Source of the DNA: Escherichia phage forsur
Direction: 5' to 3' (one strand)
Sequence record: MN850617.1
Length of the DNA stretch: 42,476 bases
Positions 13,361 to 33,213 of the stretch are shown here, piece after piece; within the stretch, counting starts at the first letter, position 1; each line of letters begins with the position of its first letter. The position numbers and the translations under genes are program-made. Below the pieces are notes generated by a model. The model was not told the DNA's origin. It searched no databases and saw only the letters and a list, made by a program, of their open reading frames with translations.

Positions 13361-16057
13361 ATGCCAATTATGCGTGACCAGCGTGGCGCAAATCTCAACG
13401 CTGCGCAACAGGGCGTACCGAATGTGCAGCAGGCTCAGACTCCGTTTAGTCTCGCAGGCCGCGATACTCGCATCGACACGTTCCCTACTGAGTCCATCCA
13501 GCGCGTACTCAACATGGCCAGTCAGTTGGCTGGCCGTGTCACTGAGCGTGCTAACGAGGAAGAATATCTCAAAGGTGCCAACGCCGCCGCGAGCGGTAAG
13601 GCTGTTGAGGATTTGGATTCGAACTGGCTGACTGCACAGTTCCAGAAAGCTGGTTATAACGACCAATTCAAGCGTATGCAGATGGCTGGCGTAGCCTCTG
13701 AAATCTCGGCCAACATGACCGAGTACGCTAAAATGTCTCCGCAAGACTTCCTGAAAGTCATTGATGAGAAGACTACCGGGCTGTTCGACAATACCGATGG
13801 TATGACCCTTCGCGGTCGCCAGTCGCTGCTGGAGAACCAGCTCACGTTCAGCAACACCCTGATTCGCACGCAGGCTGCGCAGCACGGTAAGTATCTGGTT
13901 GAGCAGCGTGCAGCAATGTACAACTCTCAGGGTAACACTCTGGTTACTCTGGCGGCTCAGGCCAAAGCATCCGGCGACGGCGGTGCGTATGCAAACGCCA
14001 CGGCTGCTACCATGGCTTGGGCTAAGTCCATTCTGGCCGATGACAAGCTGCCGCTGGAAACCCGGCGCACGCAGGTCACGTCCATGATGGGCCTGATGCT
14101 TTCGCAGGATTTGCGTACCCCGGTCGAGACGGCGGTTAACTCCGGCCTGTTCAACGACCTGCCTGCTGAGGACTTGGCCAAGCTGCAAGGTCAGATTCGT
14201 GAATCCAAATCTCGTACCGAGGTTCAGGATAACATGGGTCTGCTGGAGGCAAAGGGTCAGCTTGATGCTCGTCAGGCTGTGTTTGGTGACGTTACGCCGG
14301 GCCAGTACGGTCAGGTGCTCCAGCAGTTGGTGGACAACAAGCTCATCACTGCTTCCGGGTACAGCTCTGCTATCGAGTCCTTCTACAAGGATTACGCCAA
14401 GCAAGCCAAGGCCAGCCAGCTCGGTCAGGCATATGCCACCGGGAACCAGACGTACATGCTCCAGCAGGGCGCGAGTGAGCAGGATGGTGCTGACGCATTC
14501 ATCAAAGCTCGCATGAAGCAGCCGGGCGCTACGGCCAGTTCTGTGGCATTCGACCTGCTGCAAGTTGGCGCACAGACTGGCTTCCCATCTGCGTACAAAT
14601 CCGCAGCCAAACTGATTGAGCCATCCCTGTCGAACTTCGGCACCGTGGATGAGATGAACCCGGATGCTGCCCGTACTGTCACTGGTCTGATTGACCGTGT
14701 GACTGTGGCAGAAAATCAGGGTGACAAGACCGCATGGACTAAACTCCTGTCCGGTCTGTCTGAGGAAAACCAAGAGAAGATGGTGTACATGCGCGAGCAG
14801 ATTAAAGCTGGCCGCACCATCGACCAAGCTGGTCAGGGTTACATCAAGCAGCAGCAGGACTACGCTGGCTTGACCCCTGCTCAGAAATCCCAAATCTTAA
14901 CACAGCGTCAATCTGACGTGAACAGTGTAGTCAACTCACTTGAGTCCCAAGGCTTCTTATCTCGCACTTGGCAGGGCTTAGCTGGTCTGTTCTCAGACAC
15001 TCAGCAGAACCTGTTCCAAGCTCGCGTCGCATCTGGTGACATTACTGCTGCTCAGGAAATGTCGGAGGTGTCTGCCGCGTACCGCGAAGAACTGCAAGCC
15101 GTGGTGCTCAAGAACCCGAACATCACGAAAGACGGTATGGAAGCGCTTGCGTCTGCGAAGCTGGCCAACCGCGTGCTGCGCGTCGGGGAGACTACGTTCA
15201 GTCCCGGCTCTGTGCTTATCGCTCCGAGAAACCAAACTGTTCAGTCTATGCTTGGCCTGCCTGCTGACGTGGCACCTGACCGTATCGGTCGCGCCATCGC
15301 CTCACTTGACCAGAGCAAGGCACCAGAAGGTTTCGAATCGTCGTACTCGTTTATGCCCGATGGCTCACTGAACGTTCAGTTCTTCAACAAGACGGGTGAC
15401 GTTTCCCCGAACAGCTACCGGATTACGCCGCAGGCTATTCAGGAACGTATCCGTGAAGACGACCGTGCAGCCGCCACCGCAAATAACGAAGTCTACGGTG
15501 ATGGGAAACTCTTTGTCGATAAGTCCAGCAACATCGGGATTCGTGTCAATGGCGTGAATACTGCCGGGGTTGATGAGCAGCGTATGCTCTATGCCCGTGG
15601 TAAGCTGATTGAGTTCGAAGGTATCCGCAACACCACGTATCGTGACAGCACTGGCGTCCAGACCAACGGCATCGGTATCTCTGACCGCAGCCCGTACTTC
15701 TCTGAGGGTCAGGCTTCTGGTATGCGCGGTGGTACTGAATGGTCGCCTCGTACAATTCACGACACGTTCGTCAATCACACCAACATGGTAGCCCGGCAGA
15801 TGCCCGGTACTGCGGCAGCGCTGGGGTGGAGTCGTGACAACGACGCCCAGTTCCAGTTCATGATGCAGATTGGTTATCAGGCTGGCGCAAGCTGGTATCG
15901 CAACGAGGGTGCGTACAGCAAGCTGGCTGATGCTATCCGTGTTGGCGACCGTGACAAGGCTGTTCAGGCTCTGGCTGCGACTCCGGCTTACAAGCTGTCG
16001 CAGGATGAGCGCAAGCAGTATTACGTCCAAACTCTACTCGCAGGTATGCAGGAATGA
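13361..16057 (+). CDS. internal virion protein (gp15-like position)
   Basis: 898 aa; call is by position and size. Confidence 0.7.
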   Translation: MPIMRDQRGANLNAAQQGVPNVQQAQTPFSLAGRDTRIDTFPTESIQRVLNMASQLAGRVTERANEEEYLKGANAAASGKAVEDLDSNWLTAQFQKAGYNDQFKRMQMAGVASEISANMTEYAKMSPQDFLKVIDEKTTGLFDNTDGMTLRGRQSLLENQLTFSNTLIRTQAAQHGKYLVEQRAAMYNSQGNTLVTLAAQAKASGDGGAYANATAATMAWAKSILADDKLPLETRRTQVTSMMGLMLSQDLRTPVETAVNSGLFNDLPAEDLAKLQGQIRESKSRTEVQDNMGLLEAKGQLDARQAVFGDVTPGQYGQVLQQLVDNKLITASGYSSAIESFYKDYAKQAKASQLGQAYATGNQTYMLQQGASEQDGADAFIKARMKQPGATASSVAFDLLQVGAQTGFPSAYKSAAKLIEPSLSNFGTVDEMNPDAARTVTGLIDRVTVAENQGDKTAWTKLLSGLSEENQEKMVYMREQIKAGRTIDQAGQGYIKQQQDYAGLTPAQKSQILTQRQSDVNSVVNSLESQGFLSRTWQGLAGLFSDTQQNLFQARVASGDITAAQEMSEVSAAYREELQAVVLKNPNITKDGMEALASAKLANRVLRVGETTFSPGSVLIAPRNQTVQSMLGLPADVAPDRIGRAIASLDQSKAPEGFESSYSFMPDGSLNVQFFNKTGDVSPNSYRITPQAIQERIREDDRAAATANNEVYGDGKLFVDKSSNIGIRVNGVNTAGVDEQRMLYARGKLIEFEGIRNTTYRDSTGVQTNGIGISDRSPYFSEGQASGMRGGTEWSPRTIHDTFVNHTNMVARQMPGTAAALGWSRDNDAQFQFMMQIGYQAGASWYRNEGAYSKLADAIRVGDRDKAVQALAATPAYKLSQDERKQYYVQTLLAGMQE

Positions 16058-19000: not shown

Positions 19001-19161
19001 CGGGTGCAGCTACCAGCGCTGCTGGCGGCGTGCTGACTGGCGATACCGAGCAGGCAGTGTCCGGCGCTCGTAAAGCGGCAGGTAACATCATCCAAGCTAT
19101 CCCACTCATCTCAATCGTGCCGGGCGTCCGAGCACTCAACGAAGCAGTTAAGGGTGAATAA
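16054..19161 (+). CDS. internal virion / ejection protein (gp16-like position)
   Basis: 1035 aa, start overlaps upstream stop (ATGA); call is by position and size; no lysozyme motif recognised. Confidence 0.7.
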   Translation: MITQESLDKFMAPKQGANAPTLVIPAPVKAETLSTPLQDATRQGAVEQFDKMQELEATPIATALSASVKNWDTTQLFDAALNKPVFQADPNFHPNEALQNVQFPVTEDDRTFLFKSKSMDEFNWRTQQLQEMRERTQLAHTAPVMNAVLQFADPLYLATDLLSMGAGTALKLGRLGTAAVGAASTAATMTAVGNEARPVSQNEIIFAAALHGAATTAFYRPAAAPARRLDELSPEEFAAEMQRRNGIDPNNPPQFDPNNAMSPLAMSLGFGRRGAMETDEVPESIRAAAQRGLDLARRGEQTNPKRPFLEWSLFKSFSQHSDEASALAGRLLDDPLNPNMTSAAAIQRETQARFGVLLNQYEDTLRNALTTDGWSNLRRFRDPVGYRRAQQEFEAAVRLELDKRMIDNNFRGANPNVAAAADRLGEYSRAVGRELERKGMVEPGFVEKNPYYYPRRMNVTKIEQAEQLLGKKPFMKQMTTAVQRGIGTDRPTANVIAHAMVERARRKGYGIDNSGMIINKEGRDELLEIIENSKGLDEAAKARASALLRESGSDAGRPSMLKSRINIDMMHQLGPNLQVRDLFDDSITSMMDAYNRRITGRLALHEAGLGTDAERAAAREALAKSIKDGTARRQALEQYDNIMAYYQGAPVGEEMPQFMRQLSALTQATGLAASGLWQLVEYGTMMQRFGAVNTFRAMMRTIPEARALFKQMRVTTKEGRQLALDAEEALTAAVASDIRMRPIMQHYDDMFSADKSPWVMRLEHARDATMFINMQKYIHFHQTRTNAALVMQTLRKAAEGDAKAIAAMKTYGANDALLADIRKQVAKSGTKPDAWDEGVFNRTRIVMINAMDDAIVRARVGELPAFAEFSTLGKFLFTFRRFVAATHNKTLVGTWNREGARGMATLMAYQYPLAMMATAANNVISGKAFSDPETMAPNKLASQALNYLGAIGFASEFTGVLTGQQRSFGAPGLLFLDRAYGVAGAATSAAGGVLTGDTEQAVSGARKAAGNIIQAIPLISIVPGVRALNEAVKGE

Positions 19162-21533
19162 TGGCGAACAGCTATAACACTTACGTGGCGAACGGTTCGC
19201 AGACCGCGTTCCTCGTTACGTTTGAGCAGCGCGTGTTCACACAGATTCAGGTGTACCTCAACTCCGAACTCCAAACGAGCGGGTACACCTACAACTCTGT
19301 GACCAAACAGATTGTCTTTGACACCGCCCCGCTCGCCGGGGTGATTGTCCGTTTGCAACGCTACACCTCTGAGACTCTGCTGAACAAGTTCGGACAGGAC
19401 GCTGCCTTTACGGGCAGCAACCTCGACGAGAACTTCGAGCAGATTCTGTTCAAGGCTGAGGAAACTCAGGAAGCATGGCTCGCGCCGCTTGACCGCGCCG
19501 TCCGTGTCCCGAACTCCGAAGTCTCCATCAACGCATTACCGAACGTCGCTGGCCGCCGCAACAAGGCACTGGGCTTTGACAGCAATGGCCAGCCGTTCAT
19601 GATTCCTCTGGTTGATATCCCTGACTCCGCGCTGGCGATTGCTCTGGCAATGGCTGACGGCGGTAAGTGGATTGGTACACTGGGCGGCGGTACGTTCCTC
19701 GACCGTCAGGATACCGTGTGCCTGTCAGAGTTCACCAACAACACCGGGTATGCCTCTGTCGCCGCTGCGGTACAAGCGTGCTTCGATTATGCCAAGGCTA
19801 ACCACAAGACTGTGGATGCCCGTGGTTGGGTCGGTACTGTCAACTCTACTGTCCTGATGGACGGTATTGAGGTTGTCGGCGGCACTTGGAACGGTACGGC
19901 TGATATCCGGCTGCTGGATTCCACATTCCGCGACTTCAAAGCCTCCACTGTCCGTGTCTGTTACTGGGGTGGTAAGGTTCGCATCTCTGATTATGAGTTC
20001 ACTGGTGCGCCGTCGAACTCCAAAGTAGCGAGCATCCTGTTCCAAGGTAACATCGCCGGGGGCAGCTACGTTATTGAGAACGGTATCCACCGCAATGGCA
20101 AGTTCGGTATTCTCCAGCAGGGTACTGGTGAGGCTATCGACAACGGCGTTATCCGCAACATCGCTATGATGAATATGCTGGGTGACGGCATCGAGATGAA
20201 CGTAATCAACAAGCACTATGATGGTGGCCTGCTGATTGAGAACATCTACCTCGAAGACCTCGACGGTACGACCGCTCCTATCCCTCTGTCCAACTGGGGC
20301 ATCGGTATCGGTATCGCTGGTCAAGGCCCGTTCGGTTGGGATGCTGCTGAAACGCAGTACGCCAAGAACGTGGTTGTCCGTAACGTCCATGCTCCGCGTG
20401 GTGTGCGTCAGGTTGTCCACTTCGAAGTTACCCGCGACAGCGTGTGCGAGAACGTGTTCTGTAACCCTGACCTCGCTGTGTCAACTGGTACTGGCCTGAC
20501 GGCGGCAGGTGTAATCACCTACGGCTGCAAGCGAATGACCATTGACGGCGTGGCTGGTGAGCCAATCAACACTGGCGCAACCTCTCCTAACGCGATTCGT
20601 CTCGTTATGTTGGAGTGGGGTGCGAACCAAGCAGGTGCAGGCGGTACGCCGGGCGCGGCATGTCCTTCGTTTGACATGACTGTGCGCAACGTGCAGACCC
20701 GTACCGGACGCTTCTATGCTGGCGTTGGCTCTGATGACGTGAACAACAACACGTACCATCTGGAAAACATCCACTGCCATACGATGAGTCTGTTCGGCGT
20801 GGCAACGCTGCTGAATATGACCAACGTGACCGGGGTAGTGTTCGATGCTGTAGGCGATGACTCCAGCGGCGGTACTTCATCCAACGGCCTATACCCGCGT
20901 AAGAAGACTGTTCTCAACATGGTGAACGTGAACTTCTACGGCGATGGCATGACTGAGGGTGCGCTGTACAGTAAGGCTCGCTATTCGGATATCAGTACGC
21001 TGAACTCCAACGTGCGTGCTATCCCGTACACCAACATCCAAGGTAACGTAGGCGTCATCCTGTCTCCGGTCAACCGCATGTACACGCTGCCGAATAACCT
21101 TGCAACCCTGACTGGTGGGGAGTTCCCGACTGGTAAAGAGTTCTGTGAGGGGACGGTGCTGTTTAAGACTGACGGCTCTGGTGGCAACTTCATCGTGACT
21201 GGCTTCGGCGCGTACATCCCGGATGACGGGAACAACTTCAAGGTGCGTGCTGCTGCCGCTGGCCAGACGTATCTTGAGCAGAACCTGACTCCGGCTGGTA
21301 CTCAGGCTTCCACCTCGTGGCTGTACCATAAGCCTATCTCGGCTGGTACTCGTCTACAGGTGCCGGGCGCTGGCGCTGGTGGTGCGCCCTTGACGGTTAC
21401 GGTGGTTCGTGCGCCTTATCAGGTGGACAATAACATCGGGAACCCGGTACGCATCGACATTACCCCGGCGCTCGTGACGGCTATCCCTGCTGGGACTCAG
21501 CTCGCCGCGACGTACCCGGTCACTTATATCTAA
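19161..21533 (+). CDS. tail fiber / tailspike with T7 gp17-like N-terminal anchor and probable right-handed beta-helix (depolymerase-like) body
   Basis: 790 aa; N-terminal ~110 aa (MANSYNTYVANGS...VRLQRYTSETLLNKFGQDAAF) parallel recalled T7 gp17 N-domain; middle region has repetitive (I/V)xNG(I/V) beta-helix-like rungs (IENGIHRNGKFGI, IDNGVIRNIAMMN). Confidence 0.85.
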   Translation: MANSYNTYVANGSQTAFLVTFEQRVFTQIQVYLNSELQTSGYTYNSVTKQIVFDTAPLAGVIVRLQRYTSETLLNKFGQDAAFTGSNLDENFEQILFKAEETQEAWLAPLDRAVRVPNSEVSINALPNVAGRRNKALGFDSNGQPFMIPLVDIPDSALAIALAMADGGKWIGTLGGGTFLDRQDTVCLSEFTNNTGYASVAAAVQACFDYAKANHKTVDARGWVGTVNSTVLMDGIEVVGGTWNGTADIRLLDSTFRDFKASTVRVCYWGGKVRISDYEFTGAPSNSKVASILFQGNIAGGSYVIENGIHRNGKFGILQQGTGEAIDNGVIRNIAMMNMLGDGIEMNVINKHYDGGLLIENIYLEDLDGTTAPIPLSNWGIGIGIAGQGPFGWDAAETQYAKNVVVRNVHAPRGVRQVVHFEVTRDSVCENVFCNPDLAVSTGTGLTAAGVITYGCKRMTIDGVAGEPINTGATSPNAIRLVMLEWGANQAGAGGTPGAACPSFDMTVRNVQTRTGRFYAGVGSDDVNNNTYHLENIHCHTMSLFGVATLLNMTNVTGVVFDAVGDDSSGGTSSNGLYPRKKTVLNMVNVNFYGDGMTEGALYSKARYSDISTLNSNVRAIPYTNIQGNVGVILSPVNRMYTLPNNLATLTGGEFPTGKEFCEGTVLFKTDGSGGNFIVTGFGAYIPDDGNNFKVRAAAAGQTYLEQNLTPAGTQASTSWLYHKPISAGTRLQVPGAGAGGAPLTVTVVRAPYQVDNNIGNPVRIDITPALVTAIPAGTQLAATYPVTYI

Positions 21534-24494: not shown

Positions 24495-24983
24495 ATGAAA
24501 CTGTCTCGGCTTATGGCCGGGGCAGTCCTGTCACTGTCCTTGACTTTGACGGGCTGCTCCGCAACAAGCGCACTGTCTGCTGTAACCTCGGCTGTCTCTC
24601 CCAATAAGCCGGAACTAACGGCACAGGTTGGCGCAGAGAACACGAAACAGGGCATCGGCTTGACTGCGAAACAGTCCGACGAAACGAAGGTCGGTGACGT
24701 ATCTGGTAACGCGCAAGTGGATACCGCTAAACAGGGTAGTGATTCGACGACTGTGAAGGACGTCACAGGAGGCTCTGTAAACGCTTCTAAGCAGGGTTCG
24801 CAGATTACCAATGGAAACGTGCAGGCTAAGACTATCGTGGTCTCTCAGAGCGACCCACGCAGTCTCCTGTGGGCATTTGGCATGGGCCTTACTTGTATCT
24901 TAGGTCTGGTGATGTGGTTTGTACCATCTCCGTGGAAGAAGAAGGTGAAAGATGACGGAAGCAAAGAAGGAGCCAGCTCCTAA
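24495..24983 (+). CDS. lipoprotein with C-terminal transmembrane segment (unimolecular-spanin-like)
   Basis: N-terminus MKLSRLMAGAVLSLSLTLTGCS is a signal peptide with lipobox LTGC; C-terminus LLWAFGMGLTCILGLVMWFV is a hydrophobic helix followed by KKK; RBS AAGGGG upstream. Confidence 0.6.
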   Translation: MKLSRLMAGAVLSLSLTLTGCSATSALSAVTSAVSPNKPELTAQVGAENTKQGIGLTAKQSDETKVGDVSGNAQVDTAKQGSDSTTVKDVTGGSVNASKQGSQITNGNVQAKTIVVSQSDPRSLLWAFGMGLTCILGLVMWFVPSPWKKKVKDDGSKEGASS

Positions 24984-26485: not shown

Positions 26486-26499
26486 TTATCTATTGATAT

Positions 26500-26590
26500 C
26501 AGTAACTTATAACCTATCTGATAACGGTATCTATCCTATGCAATAACCTATTCAATCAAATATTTATTCCTAATGATTACAGTAACTTAT
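26500..26590. repeat. AT-rich segment with 11-bp direct repeat CAGTAACTTAT (26500..26510 and 26580..26590)
   Basis: Read directly; copies are 80 bp apart, each preceded by TGAT; candidate origin or packaging iterons. Confidence 0.4.
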
Positions 26591-26622
26591 CCACTATTTG
26601 AGCTATTCAGTGAAAATAAATC

Positions 26623-26651
26623 TTGCAATGCTGTTTGTGATTTGCTGTAAT
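26623..26651 (+). promoter_or_regulatory. host sigma70-type early promoter P1
   Basis: -35 TTGCAA (26623..26628), 17-bp spacer, extended -10 TGcTGTAAT (hexamer 26646..26651); A-rich UP-like tract upstream. Confidence 0.6.
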
Positions 26652-26726
26652 TCTCATCGCCGGGTAGCAGAACATCGCTACACGGTGGCAAGACGGTAAC
26701 ACTGCTCTTTAACAATCTGGAGTGTA

Positions 26727-26755
26727 TTGACAAGGCAAGCTCACTATGCTGTAAT
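26727..26755 (+). promoter_or_regulatory. host sigma70-type early promoter P2
   Basis: -35 TTGACA (26727..26732), 17-bp spacer, extended -10 TGcTGTAAT (hexamer 26750..26755). Confidence 0.65.
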
Positions 26756-26863
26756 GCTTCCAGTCAGCCAGACAAGCCAAACAGTCATGGATAAAGACGT
26801 TAAAACCCGCGCAGGCTAACTGGTACGGATTATTCATCTCAGAATGGGCGCTGAATAAAACGG

Positions 26864-26892
26864 TTGACAGGATGAAACGAGTATGCTGTAAT
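26864..26892 (+). promoter_or_regulatory. host sigma70-type early promoter P3
   Basis: -35 TTGACA (26864..26869), 17-bp spacer, extended -10 TGcTGTAAT (hexamer 26887..26892); AATAAAA upstream. Confidence 0.65.
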
Positions 26893-26944
26893 ACGCTCCA
26901 GATTGACAGGGCAAGCAAGCCTGACAGTCAGTAGTAAAAAGTAG

Positions 26945-26973
26945 TTGACAAGCTGAATACACTGTGTTGTAAT
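26945..26973 (+). promoter_or_regulatory. host sigma70-type early promoter P4
   Basis: -35 TTGACA (26945..26950), 17-bp spacer, extended -10 TGtTGTAAT (hexamer 26968..26973); GTAAAAAG upstream. Confidence 0.65.
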
Positions 26974-29790: not shown

Positions 29791-30099
29791 ATGGCAACTA
29801 TCAACGTCTACAAAACTATCACTGGCTCACTGGTATTCGTAGTGGGTGAACTGCGTGAAGATGCACCAATCGTTGGCGTGTCTCTGCGTGAAGGGGCAAC
29901 CGAGGCTGACGCCATCGCTGAGATTCGTCAGAACATTGAGAACCTCGGCGGCCTGTTCTTCCTGCTGCAAGGTGGCAGCCTGAACCTCGCTAAGTTGCAG
30001 GAGCATGAGCCTGTACTCGTGACCAGCTTCGAAGCGGAAGATGTAGACGCCAGTGACTTCGAAGCCAGCCGCGCTGACGAAGAAGAAGCAGGCGAGTAA
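29791..30099 (+). CDS. small acidic early protein, tandem paralog B (MATINVY...SFEAEDVDASDFEAS...)
   Basis: ATG 29791; upstream hairpin 29730..29753 and GGCAATCATGCC at 29757..29768 mirror paralog A. Confidence 0.75.
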   Translation: MATINVYKTITGSLVFVVGELREDAPIVGVSLREGATEADAIAEIRQNIENLGGLFFLLQGGSLNLAKLQEHEPVLVTSFEAEDVDASDFEASRADEEEAGE

Positions 30100-30212
30100 T
30101 GAGCGCCATCGAGGTGGCACTGATGTTGGGCTGTCATGCAGGTATTGGCAGCCTCGTCATCTACATCGTTGGCGCGGCACGCAAATCATACGATAGGAGA
30201 ACCAAGCTATGA
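30099..30212 (+). CDS. tiny hydrophobic peptide (37 aa), speculative
   Basis: ATG overlaps upstream stop (TAATG); MSAIEVALMLGCHAGIGSLVIYIVGAARKSYDRRTKL. Confidence 0.3.
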   Translation: MSAIEVALMLGCHAGIGSLVIYIVGAARKSYDRRTKL

Positions 30213-30385
30213 AGTTTGCAGTATCGCGCAGCGGTGCAAGCCATGCGGCACACAAGTTGCACTTCCTGTTCCACTCGCTGTACCTTACAGCGGCTGCGAT
30301 GGAGGGTCACTTGTTCTATAGCCTCATGGCTGGCGGCACCTTACTGTTCATGGTTGGCACGGCGGTGCTGGGCAATGAACATTAA
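30209..30385 (+). CDS. small hydrophobic protein (58 aa), speculative
   Basis: ATG overlaps upstream stop (ATGA), AGGAG upstream; contains LMAGGTLLFMVGTAVLG. Confidence 0.3.
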   Translation: MKFAVSRSGASHAAHKLHFLFHSLYLTAAAMEGHLFYSLMAGGTLLFMVGTAVLGNEH

Positions 30386-30548
30386 TCTGTTACAACGGGT
30401 CAAGGGTATGGAGCGTCGGCACTGGGAGACGGCCATCATCCTTAAGGTAAGCATAAGCGCTGGACTGGCTGCTGCTTATTTCCTGCCAACCACCGCAGCA
30501 ATAGCCGTTGGTATCAGCACCAACCTGCTATGGTTGTGGAAGTTGTAA
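30375..30548 (+). CDS. small membrane protein (57 aa)
   Basis: In-frame ATG within track ORF 30216..30548; contains AIAVGISTNLLWLW; followed by terminator-like hairpin. Confidence 0.4.
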   Translation: MNINLLQRVKGMERRHWETAIILKVSISAGLAAAYFLPTTAAIAVGISTNLLWLWKL

Positions 30549-30612: not shown

Positions 30613-30951
30613 ATGGCACTACATCGAGTGAAGGTAATGCGTGGGCCTGACTTCGAAGACGGGCAAGAGATTGCTGCATTGCAGTACCGCTTGCCGTCCG
30701 GTCAGGAGGGGCTGGTCATCATTGACCAGATTGAAATCATGGGTGAGCACATGCTGATTGCTGATGCCACCGATGAGCAAATCATTGAGCGCTGCAAGGC
30801 ATACGCCGGGGGCAGACCGTTCATCATCGACCTGATGAATGACCAGCACATCAATGCTGATGGTTCGCTGCTGTTCAAGGCATGGCTTTATGCTCTCACA
30901 ACAATCTACGAAGGGGAGATGTATCTCTTTGGCGTAGACAACGAGGGTTAA
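30613..30951 (+). CDS. hypothetical protein (112 aa)
   Basis: ORF in track; RBS GAGAGGGGAG upstream. Confidence 0.7.
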   Translation: MALHRVKVMRGPDFEDGQEIAALQYRLPSGQEGLVIIDQIEIMGEHMLIADATDEQIIERCKAYAGGRPFIIDLMNDQHINADGSLLFKAWLYALTTIYEGEMYLFGVDNEG

Positions 30952-30954
30952 ATC

Positions 30955-31269
30955 ATGAAGGTAAGCAAAGGATATCTGTTCGTGCTGTTGATGCTGGCCA
31001 CCCTGTATCTCAGCACCGTGCATGTGGCACTGGCAGCCACTGTGGAGAAGGTGCATTTGGATGCGTATGACGTACCGCTGGGCGCACCTGATGGACAGGT
31101 GTACTCTGCTTGCGTCATTGACCTACGCAAAGGCGGCACTGTCAGCACACTGGCCTACGTTGGTGAGTGTGAGGATGTGCTGCCACACCTGAAAGAAAAG
31201 CTGGAGCATGATGGCGTGACCACCATCGTGACTCTCTCAATCAACGGTCATAACATCAACCTAACGTGA
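30955..31269 (+). CDS. secreted/periplasmic small protein with N-terminal signal peptide
   Basis: MKVSKGYLFVLLMLATLYLSTVHVALA-ATVEK: charged N-region, hydrophobic core, ALA-A cleavage-like site; mature part has two Cys. Confidence 0.7.
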   Translation: MKVSKGYLFVLLMLATLYLSTVHVALAATVEKVHLDAYDVPLGAPDGQVYSACVIDLRKGGTVSTLAYVGECEDVLPHLKEKLEHDGVTTIVTLSINGHNINLT

Positions 31270-31277
31270 GGTTTTAT

Positions 31278-31529
31278 ATGAGCACTCAAGCTAAGATTGT
31301 AATTCTGCGCAACGACTATGGCCGTCCTACTCCGTTCGGCACCTTCTGTCCGTTCCTCGATACCATTGAGGGTAAAGAGTACGATGTACTCATCCTTGAG
31401 CCGGGCGAAGTGGACGCCGAAGGGGATGAAGTTGACAAGCGCTCGGTCAGTTTCCGCGATGAAGTGGGTGACTTAGCTGGCGCACACATTGACTACCATG
31501 AAGGTAAGTCATTCAAGTTCGTCGAGTAA
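31278..31529 (+). CDS. hypothetical protein (83 aa)
   Basis: ATG 31278 with GAGG 6 nt upstream. Confidence 0.65.
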   Translation: MSTQAKIVILRNDYGRPTPFGTFCPFLDTIEGKEYDVLILEPGEVDAEGDEVDKRSVSFRDEVGDLAGAHIDYHEGKSFKFVE

Positions 31530-32988: not shown

Positions 32989-33213
32989 GCTCACCGTAAC
33001 CAAATCACCCACCGGATTATTCTGGTGGGTAGTTGATAAGCTGCAACCAAATAAACCTTTGGCTGTGCGTGATACAAAGTGGGAAGCCGAGAGTAAACTC
33101 GAAGACCTTCAACGTATTATGCGGAATGTTATTCCAGCTTAGCCATCTACTCATGCCAGTTATTATTTAGCTGGCATTATGAAGGTGACTATATTGGACA
33201 ACCCGGAGGAAAT

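What the first reader, a model, noticed from the sequence alone, without database searches (positions are those of the whole stretch)
30955..31269. Early gene encoding a small secreted protein
The product begins with a canonical Sec signal peptide (MKVSKGYLFVLLMLATLYLSTVHVALA) and a ~77-aa mature domain with two cysteines. An exported protein in the early module suggests action in the periplasm (superinfection exclusion, receptor masking or inhibition of an envelope defence).
Basis: partly seen in the sequence, partly recalled or inferred. Interest (0 to 1): 0.45.

Follow-up and report, generated by a model that had tools for sequence, protein, structure and literature searches.

The report
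Exported small early phage protein
A lytic T7-like coliphage carries a real but optional early gene for a small protein that all sequence evidence says is sent into the host periplasm; it belongs to a tiny uncharacterised phage-only family, and its job, most plausibly blocking other phages at the cell envelope, is untested.

Summary
ORF 30955-31269 (+), 104 aa, has a good Shine-Dalgarno site. It is annotated as a hypothetical CDS in seven related GenBank phages and is under purifying selection (dN/dS about 0.16).

The window is a complete Bonnellvirus genome (Autographiviridae, phiKMV-like order). The gene lies about 4 kb downstream of a cluster of host-type promoters and about 2 kb upstream of the early/middle boundary.

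The N-terminus has a charged start, a hydrophobic core and Ala-Leu-Ala before residue 28. This pattern is kept in 19 of 20 homologues down to 30% identity, and the -1 Ala is invariant. Export and cleavage are therefore well supported, though not run through a dedicated predictor or tested.

The 77-aa mature part is acidic (pI 4.85) and has two invariant Cys. It is modelled as a small beta-beta-beta-alpha-beta-beta domain with no specific structural or sequence relative.

The family is phage-only, narrow and optional. It is absent from about half of bonnellviruses, always follows a gp10 homologue, and is swapped for an unrelated gene in phage HHU8.

Function is unknown. My best guess is a Spackle-like envelope block to superinfection (about 0.35-0.4). 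It is a moderately interesting candidate, not a surprise.

The parts
30943..30947 (+). Shine-Dalgarno GAGGG, 7 nt upstream of the ATG
   Evidence: Read directly. The upstream gene's TAA is at 30949-30951.
30955..31269 (+). CDS of the 104-aa precursor (orthologue of glasur_11, LIMEzero ORF11)
   Evidence: dN/dS is 0.16.
30955..31035 (+). Predicted Sec signal peptide, residues 1-27: n-region MKVSK, h-region GYLFVLLMLATLYL, c-region STVHVALA
   Evidence: The pattern is conserved in 19 of 20 homologues. The AF2 model gives a helix at 5-27.
31027..31035 (+). A25-L26-A27, the predicted signal peptidase I site (cleavage before A28)
   Evidence: A27 is invariant in 15 sequences down to 30% identity. 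Position -3 is always A, V or S.
31036..31266 (+). Mature 77-aa domain, 8.2 kDa, pI 4.85, modelled as beta-beta-beta-alpha-beta-beta
   Evidence: Model mec92fcc7e482, pLDDT 82, pTM 0.68. pI. Invariant residues are D36, D39, C53, D56, T65, C72, I96-N97-G98 and N102-L103.
31111..31113 (+). Cys53 codon (invariant)
31168..31170 (+). Cys72 codon (invariant); the presumed disulfide partner of Cys53
   Evidence: The disulfide is inferred, because no model coordinates were available.
30613..30951 (+). Upstream 112-aa cytoplasmic gene (gp10 homologue), tightly packed against the exported-protein gene (4-nt gap; coupling inferred) and always found upstream of it
   Evidence: A gp10 homologue sits directly upstream in all 13 loci that carry the exported protein. 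It has no family hit.
26623..26973 (+). Context: cluster of host-type early promoters (TTGACA/TTGCAA, 17-nt spacer, TGnTGTAAT) that presumably drive the early block
   Evidence: Three exact pattern matches against 0 expected. A fourth variant was read.
33156..33202 (+). Context: stem-loop plus promoter-like sequence resembling the annotated terminator and phage promoter of LIMEzero, marking the end of the early block

Best explanation
This is an optional early gene of a lytic phiKMV-like coliphage.

Proposed sequence of events:
1. Host RNA polymerase transcribes the gene from the left-end promoter cluster soon after infection (inferred from position).
2. The 104-aa precursor is targeted to the Sec translocon by its N-terminal signal peptide and cut by signal peptidase I after Ala27. 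This is inferred from sequence and its conservation; I put it at about 0.85 for export and about 0.75 for cleavage.
3. An acidic 8.2-kDa domain is released into the periplasm, probably stabilised by a Cys53-Cys72 disulfide (inferred).
4. The domain is far too small, and too unlike any enzyme, to be catalytic. It most likely acts by binding a partner in the envelope.

I commit to the reading that it protects the already infected cell against secondary infection, that is, superinfection exclusion at the DNA-entry step (about 0.35-0.4). The most concrete version has it binding something that incoming related phages must deploy in the periplasm: the basic C-terminal lysozyme domain of the 898-aa internal virion protein, or the ejectosome tunnel proteins. 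That would be functionally analogous to T4 Spackle inhibiting the gp5 tail lysozyme, but with an unrelated fold.
For: - Real gene: it has a Shine-Dalgarno site, tight packing and annotated orthologues. dN/dS is 0.16.
- Early position: it lies downstream of three to four consensus host promoters at 26.6-27.0 kb and upstream of a LIMEzero-like terminator and phage promoter at 33.16-33.20 kb.
- Signal peptide: the n/h/c pattern and -3/-1 small residues are kept in 19 of 20 homologues. The -1 Ala is invariant, and Pro at -5 and charges at -2/-5 are tolerated.
- There is no lipobox or twin-arginine in the window protein.
- The signal-peptide region evolves about 3.5 times faster than the mature part at non-synonymous sites.
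- Both mature-domain Cys are invariant.
- It is the only predicted soluble exported protein of the phage.
- Optional distribution: it occurs in 9 of about 19 related phage records, is replaced by an unrelated gene in HHU8 and aldrigsur, and is absent from J8-65. This fits a competitive or accessory function.
- Format match to T4 Spackle, which is an early gene with a 22-aa signal, a 75-aa mature protein, one disulfide and binding to a basic patch on a lysozyme (PMC7677548).
- Here the mature pI is 4.85. The phage has a virion lysozyme domain of pI 8.9.
- Periplasmic small proteins can block T7-type DNA entry, as shown for bacterial HxsA (PMC13128918).
Against: - No experiment and no dedicated predictor supports export. 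The uncharged run is 20-25 residues, long enough for a membrane anchor.
- There is no homology or fold similarity to Spackle, Llp/Cor, Sim, Imm, RI or lysozyme inhibitors.
- The virion lysozyme domain is equally conserved in phages with and without the gene, so there is no co-variation signal.
- The charge complementarity is trivial evidence.
- The prior for exclusion rests on a handful of characterised phage periplasmic proteins (own knowledge).
Confidence: 0.4

Rival explanations
1. A periplasmic effector aimed at the host rather than at other phages. It would bind and neutralise a host envelope component. Candidates are a periplasmic or membrane-associated defence (DNA-entry blockers such as HXS, for example), a protease or nuclease, an envelope-stress sensor, or the capsule (colanic acid) export machinery that supplies the receptor for this phage's colanidase tailspike.
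For: - The same export evidence applies as above.
- It is accessory and patchily distributed like anti-defence genes, and sits in the same block as the SAM lyase anti-restriction gene.
- The protein is nearly identical (96-97%) in phages of Escherichia, Pantoea, Kosakonia and Cronobacter. This fits a target conserved across Enterobacterales.
- Periplasmic defences do exist (PMC13128918).
Against: - No hit in PADLOC or any other family library.
- No phage-encoded periplasmic anti-defence protein is known to me.
- The cross-genus identity simply tracks overall genome similarity.
Confidence: 0.25
2. The hydrophobic N-terminus is not cleaved. The protein would then be a bitopic inner-membrane protein (N-in, C-out) with its 77-aa domain tethered at the periplasmic face. 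This concerns topology and is compatible with any of the functional readings.
For: - The uncharged run is 20-25 residues (31 in LIMEzero).
- AF2 models one continuous helix at 5-27.
Against: - The -1 Ala is invariant and position -3 is always small.
- Polar residues, Pro and charges sit in the last 5-8 residues of the segment in all lineages. That is the signature of a signal peptidase I site and is not needed for an anchor.
Confidence: 0.12
3. A lysis-timing factor. It would be a secreted antiholin-like or spanin-modulating protein acting on the periplasmic parts of the lysis machinery, as T4 RI does.
For: - T4 RI is also a roughly 97-aa early exported protein (own knowledge; PMC11413866, listed).
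- The bonnellvirus Kc261 has a long latent period of about 60 min (PMC8402661).
Against: - The gene is far from the lysis cassette at 24.5-25.9 kb.
- Its strongly hydrophobic core is unlike a releasable signal-anchor (SAR) domain.
- It has no sequence or fold similarity to RI.
- Close relatives lack it.
Confidence: 0.07
4. A minimal metal-binding or nuclease-like domain. The beta-beta-beta-alpha-beta core resembles the first half of RNase H-like and sugar-kinase (ASKHA) folds. Three invariant Asp (D36, D39, D56) could hold a divalent cation and act on nucleic acid passing through the periplasm.
For: - The protein has invariant acidic residues on strands 1 and 2.
Against: - 77 aa cannot hold the full catalytic core.
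- No sequence hit to any nuclease family.
Confidence: 0.03
5. A chance ORF, or a decaying gene without function.
For: Rule-based signal-peptide look-alikes occur in about 4% of random ORFs of this genome.
Against: - The length is conserved at 96-117 aa in homologues down to 30% identity.
- dN/dS is 0.16.
- It has a Shine-Dalgarno site and conserved synteny.
Confidence: 0.01

Closest known systems
T4 Spackle (Sp, gene 61.3), a periplasmic inhibitor of the gp5 tail lysozyme that gives superinfection exclusion
   Same: Both are early genes of a lytic coliphage. Both have a cleavable Sec signal (22 vs 27 aa) and a mature protein of 75 vs 77 aa with two Cys (PMC7677548). The protein here is acidic, and Spackle binds a basic patch. 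This phage also ejects a virion lysozyme domain.
   Different: There is no sequence similarity: the profile search against PDB found nothing at E up to 10. The fold differs, alpha-helical bundle vs beta-beta-beta-alpha-beta-beta. The phage type differs, a podovirus with an internal ejected lysozyme vs a myovirus tail spike. No functional data exist.
Lipoprotein exclusion factors T5 Llp and Cor (T1, phi80, N15) that block FhuA
   Same: They are small exported phage proteins that act at the envelope, and some are made by lytic phages.
   Different: Those are lipoproteins with a lipobox Cys at +1. The window protein has no Cys in its signal peptide and has an Ala-x-Ala site. Some homologues have a Cys 4-5 residues before the site in lipobox-like contexts, but it is not conserved. 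This phage's tailspike is a colanidase, not a porin or FhuA binder.
T4 RI antiholin
   Same: It is also an early exported protein of about 100 aa, acting through a periplasmic domain.
   Different: RI uses a weakly hydrophobic releasable signal-anchor (SAR) domain and is helical. No sequence or fold match was found.
Bacterial HxsA (HXS system), a periplasmic blocker of phage DNA entry
   Same: It is a small periplasmic protein that interferes with T7-type genome entry (PMC13128918). It shows that the proposed mode of action is feasible.
   Different: It is host-encoded, needs maturation by a radical-SAM enzyme, and is basic with His-x-Ser repeats. It is unrelated in sequence.
Periplasmic proteinaceous lysozyme inhibitors (Ivy, PliC/MliC, PliG)
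   Same: They are small, exported and beta-rich, and bind lysozymes.

Membership tests
Sec-type signal peptide cleaved by signal peptidase I | Positively charged n-region | tested here: met
   K2 and K5 are present. Net charge is at least +1 in 19 of 20 homologues.
Sec-type signal peptide cleaved by signal peptidase I | Hydrophobic h-region without charges | tested here: met
   Residues 6-19, with a best 10-residue Kyte-Doolittle mean of 2.9. The range across homologues is 2.4-3.3.
Sec-type signal peptide cleaved by signal peptidase I | Polar c-region with small uncharged residues at -3 and -1 | tested here: met
   The site is A25-L26-A27. The -1 Ala is invariant, position -3 is A, V or S, and Pro at -5 is common.
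Sec-type signal peptide cleaved by signal peptidase I | Score from a trained predictor (SignalP, DeepTMHMM) | not testable with these tools
   No such tool was available. Only rule-based and comparative evidence was used.
Sec-type signal peptide cleaved by signal peptidase I | Actual export and processing | not testable with these tools
   This needs PhoA or Bla fusions, cell fractionation and N-terminal mass spectrometry.
Lipoprotein signal (signal peptidase II) | Lipobox [LVI][ASTVI][GAS]C with Cys at +1 | tested here: not met
   The window signal peptide has no Cys. Lipobox-like ISAC, VSAC and LVSC occur in only a few homologues, upstream of the invariant Ala site.
Tat signal | Twin-arginine motif in the n-region | tested here: not met
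   The n-region is MKVSK, with no RR.
T4 Spackle family | Sequence homology to Spackle | tested here: not met
   The PHROG scan gave no annotated hit. The profile against all PDB sequences gave nothing at E up to 10 except a ribosomal protein at E 0.44.
T4 Spackle family | Compact alpha-helical bundle fold | tested here: not met
T4 Spackle family | Binds and inhibits the virion lysozyme | not testable with these tools
   A candidate target exists: the 898-aa internal virion protein, residues 751-871, has a weak Phage_lysozyme match and relatives are annotated as lysozyme. No co-variation was seen.
T4 RI antiholin | Releasable signal-anchor (SAR) N-terminus and helical periplasmic domain | tested here: not met
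   The core is strongly hydrophobic and Leu/Val/Phe-rich. There is no sequence or fold match.
RNase H-like / ASKHA fold enzymes | Complete catalytic core with significant structural match | tested here: not met
   Only a half-domain topology match was found, Z no higher than 5.7 and 5-23% identity. The domain is 77 aa.
Known anti-phage defence proteins (PADLOC) | Profile match | tested here: not met
   0 families at E up to 1.

The most novel reading that the evidence does not exclude
This would be the first envelope-acting early effector described for phiKMV/T7-type lytic podoviruses. It would be a new-fold periplasmic protein that blocks assembly or function of the incoming phage's periplasm-spanning ejection apparatus, either its lysozyme domain or its tunnel proteins. 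That would explain how such phages exclude competitors. It would also give a small, portable inhibitor of podovirus genome entry, possibly working together with the always-adjacent gp10.
Probability: 0.25. Interest if true: 0.6.

Novelty: new variant of a known kind. Interest (0 to 1): 0.35.

Why it matters
Few periplasmic proteins made by strictly lytic phages have a known function; T4 Spackle and RI and T5 Llp are the main examples. To my knowledge none is known for the phiKMV/T7 group.

This is a compact 77-aa, disulfide-containing domain that is easy to express. It is naturally present or absent among otherwise similar E. coli K-12 phages: forsur, glasur, usur and Lidtsur carry it, while aldrigsur, J8-65 and HHU8 do not. 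That makes a clean test system for exclusion or envelope takeover.

If it blocks genome entry, it would be a useful tool. It would also be a caveat for phage cocktails.

If it turns out to have no phenotype, it is one more orphan early gene.

Tried and rejected
- **Family libraries.** Pfam, PHROGs, NCBIfam and PADLOC gave no meaningful hit for the protein or its two neighbours. The only weak hits were phrog_3644 of unknown function at E 0.22 and argB at E 0.022, far below cut-off.
- **Exhaustive profile search of 1.84 billion representatives.** This gave only 6 hits. One, P0015, is a 7,702-aa Thr/Ser-rich repeat adhesin with 29 weak stretches. I judged it compositional and spurious after reading the sequence.
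- **Lipoprotein idea.** Rejected for the window protein, which has no Cys in its signal peptide.
- **TonB-box resemblance.** TTIVTLS (residues 89-95) resembles a TonB box, but this is not conserved in distant homologues (KTALIHLT, KQAILYVT) and the segment is modelled as a core strand.
- **Co-variation with the virion lysozyme domain.** None was seen. Identity is 84-99% regardless of whether the gene is present.
- **Host origin.** Rejected. There was no match in 5,426 complete E. coli genomes and none in 185,579 species genomes. GC and GC3 match the rest of the phage.
- **Rfam.** A scan of the early region found nothing.
- **Sigma-70 scan tool.** It missed the early promoters because their -10 element is TGTAAT.
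- **Literature.** The LIMEzero paper was not in the library. The bonnellvirus papers say nothing about this gene.
- **Disulfide geometry.** It could not be checked, because model coordinates are not exposed.

Full report
**What is there.**

- GAGGG lies 7 nt upstream of the ATG.
- The preceding gene ends at 30949-30951 and the next gene starts at 31278, so the three genes are tightly packed.
- The predicted cleavage site A25-L26-A27 is at 31027-31035.
- The two cysteines of the mature part are encoded at 31111-31113 and 31168-31170.

**Where it is.**

The window is a complete, circularly permuted genome of a bonnellvirus (Autographiviridae).

- It is 98% identical over the tested 6 kb to Escherichia phages glasur and usur.
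- All but one of the annotated genes are on one strand, in phiKMV-like order.
- Its length of 42,476 bp equals that published for phage forsur (PMC7552041). The identity with forsur is inferred from that match.
- The gene is the orthologue of glasur_11, annotated 'hypothetical protein'.

The gene lies in the leftmost block of small unknown genes, between the SAM lyase gene and the primase gene.

- Upstream, at 26.6-27.0 kb, I found three exact copies of TTGACA-N14-TGnTGTAAT against 0 expected, plus one variant. This is a typical cluster of strong host promoters.
- Downstream, at 33156-33202, there is a stem-loop followed by a sequence resembling the annotated terminator and phage promoter that precede the primase module in Pantoea phage LIMEzero.

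'Early gene' is therefore well supported by position, though not by expression data.

**Is it a real gene?**

Yes, on three grounds.

- Homologues of 96-117 aa exist down to 30% identity.
- Nei-Gojobori dN/dS between the window and Lidtsur is 0.158, with 0.11 for the mature part and 0.26 for the signal peptide.
- Composition matches the rest of the genome.

**Is it exported?**

The precursor has a basic start (MKVSK), a 14-residue strongly hydrophobic core, and a polar end (STVHVALA) with Ala at -3 and -1.

My rule-based detector also fires on about 4% of random ORFs in this genome, so a single sequence is not decisive. The comparative evidence is much stronger.

- 19 of 20 homologues, and a further IMG/VR one, keep the same three-part layout, although the segment itself diverges fast. 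Non-synonymous divergence is 0.20 against 0.057 in the mature part.
- The -1 Ala is invariant across 15 aligned sequences.
- Position -3 is always Ala, Val or Ser.
- Pro at -5 and charged residues at -2/-5 appear in several lineages, but never at -1 or -3.
- The window protein has no lipobox and no twin-arginine.

This is the pattern expected of a Sec signal peptide cut by signal peptidase I.

The residual doubt is that the uncharged run is 20-25 residues, long enough for an uncleaved anchor. No trained predictor or experiment was available.

Among all annotated proteins of the phage, this is the only one with such a signal. The others with hydrophobic segments are tiny membrane proteins and a lipobox-bearing spanin-like protein.

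**The mature domain.**

It is 77 aa, 8.2 kDa, with pI 4.85, and all homologues are acidic.

- Invariant residues are D36, D39, C53, D56, T65, C72, I96-N97-G98 and N102-L103.
- The stretches HLDAYDVPL and TTIVTLSINGHNINLT are identical in all sequences above 56% identity.
- AlphaFold2 on the family alignment gives a moderately confident model: pLDDT 77 for the full protein, and pLDDT 82 with pTM 0.68 for the mature part.
- The topology is beta-beta-beta-alpha-beta-beta.
- A Cys53-Cys72 disulfide is plausible from that topology, but I could not measure it.

It is a small binding-type domain with no identifiable relative.

**Distribution.**

The family is phage-only and narrow.

- 9 of 50,697 phage records.
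- 5 of 2.9 million IMG/VR contigs, all 42-44 kb.
- 21 clusters among 5.8 billion proteins.
- 6 hits among 1.84 billion representatives, one of them spurious.
- None in 185,579 species genomes or in 5,426 E. coli genomes.

Within bonnellviruses it is optional.

- Present in forsur, glasur, usur, Lidtsur, Kc261, RZ4 and ROV85, and in the separate genus of LIMEzero.
- Absent from J8-65, smaasur, aldrigsur, altidsur, megetsur, mellemsur, HHU8, LF82-23 and others.

In all 13 loci that carry it, a homologue of the 112-aa upstream gene (gp10) sits directly before it, with at most one inserted ORF. gp10 also occurs alone. In HHU8 the slot between the gp10 and gp12 homologues holds an unrelated ~80-aa gene instead.

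It therefore behaves as a swappable accessory cassette.

**What it probably does.**

Nothing here identifies the function. An accessory, early, exported, binding-sized protein of a lytic phage most resembles in format T4 Spackle. Spackle is an early gene with a 22-aa signal and a 75-aa mature protein with one disulfide, and it binds a basic patch on the tail lysozyme (PMC7677548).

This phage does eject a peptidoglycan hydrolase. The 898-aa internal virion protein has a weak C-terminal Phage_lysozyme match, relatives are annotated as lysozyme, and the domain has pI 8.9. Small periplasmic proteins can block T7-type DNA entry (PMC13128918).

I therefore favour a block to superinfection at the entry step, at about 0.35-0.4. 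I found no co-variation with the lysozyme domain, and the charge argument is weak.

The main rivals are:

- an effector against a host envelope component or defence (0.25);
- an uncleaved anchor topology (0.12, orthogonal to function);
- a lysis-timing role (0.07);
- a minimal metal-binding or nuclease-like domain (0.03).

**Verdict.**

It is not a member of any known family. In kind it resembles known exported early phage proteins but has an unrelated sequence and fold, so I rate it a new variant of a known kind.

It is a sound and easily testable candidate, but not surprising to a specialist. Interest 0.35.

Noticed in passing
window 1-42476: The window length (42,476 bp) equals the published length of Escherichia phage forsur MN850617 (PMC7552041). 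The window is 98% identical to glasur and usur, so it is probably forsur itself, circularly permuted relative to the glasur record.
   Followed up: partly
window 26623-26973 (+): There is a cluster of four host-type promoters with a 17-nt spacer and an extended -10 element, TGnTGTAAT. Three are exact matches to TTGACA-N14-TGnTGTAAT against 0 expected. The consensus scan tool missed them because the -10 is TGTAAT.
   Followed up: yes
window 26490-26601 (+): Two AT-rich direct repeats of about 32 nt (CTATTGATATCAGTAACTTATAACCTATCTGA and a 78% copy) lie 80 nt apart, just upstream of the promoter cluster and near the position of the glasur genome end. They could be end-related or regulatory.
   Followed up: no
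window 33156-33202 (+): A stem-loop (ATGCCAG...CTGGCAT) is followed by AAGGTGACTATATTGGACAAC. This resembles the annotated terminator and phage-specific promoter of LIMEzero upstream of its primase module. It is unique in the window.
   Followed up: partly
window 30099-30548 (+): A run of tiny hydrophobic proteins lies just upstream of gp10 and the exported-protein gene: 37 aa (30099-30212), 58 aa (30209-30385), and an ORF of 57 aa (30375-30548, MNINLL...LLWLWKL). The last is unannotated and fills a 228-nt 'gap' in the glasur annotation. None has homologues in J8-65, aldrigsur, HHU8 or LIMEzero.
   Followed up: partly
window 24495-24983 (+): A 162-aa protein has an N-terminal lipobox (LTLTGC) and a C-terminal transmembrane segment (LLWAFGMGLTCILGLVMWFV). 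This is the architecture of a unimolecular spanin. It is followed by a 127-aa protein with a C-terminal hydrophobic segment and by a GH108 endolysin.
   Followed up: partly
window 13361-16057 (+), residues 751-871: The 898-aa internal virion protein has a weak C-terminal Phage_lysozyme match (E 0.0028, below cut-off). RefSeq relatives are annotated 'internal virion lysozyme motif'. The domain is basic (pI 8.9) and conserved at 84-99% across bonnellviruses.
   Followed up: partly
window 28.6-31.6 kb; loci L002, L004-L006: The early block contains paralogue families. Two 'MATINV...' genes are 46% identical to each other. A family of ~80-aa proteins (gp12, aldrigsur_10/11/12, HHU8_10, LIMEzero ORF4/5) varies in copy number between phages. 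Many early genes are separated by regular gaps of 60-75 nt.
   Followed up: partly
window 19161-21533 (+): The tailspike is annotated as a colanidase in relatives, with a T7 tail-fibre N-terminal domain here. Capsule polysaccharide is therefore the likely primary receptor, which matters for any receptor-masking idea.
   Followed up: no
protein P0013 (56 aa): A C-terminal fragment of this protein is deposited as an Escherichia coli hypothetical protein on an 11.5-kb contig. No complete E. coli genome carries the gene, so this is likely phage DNA in a bacterial assembly.
   Followed up: partly
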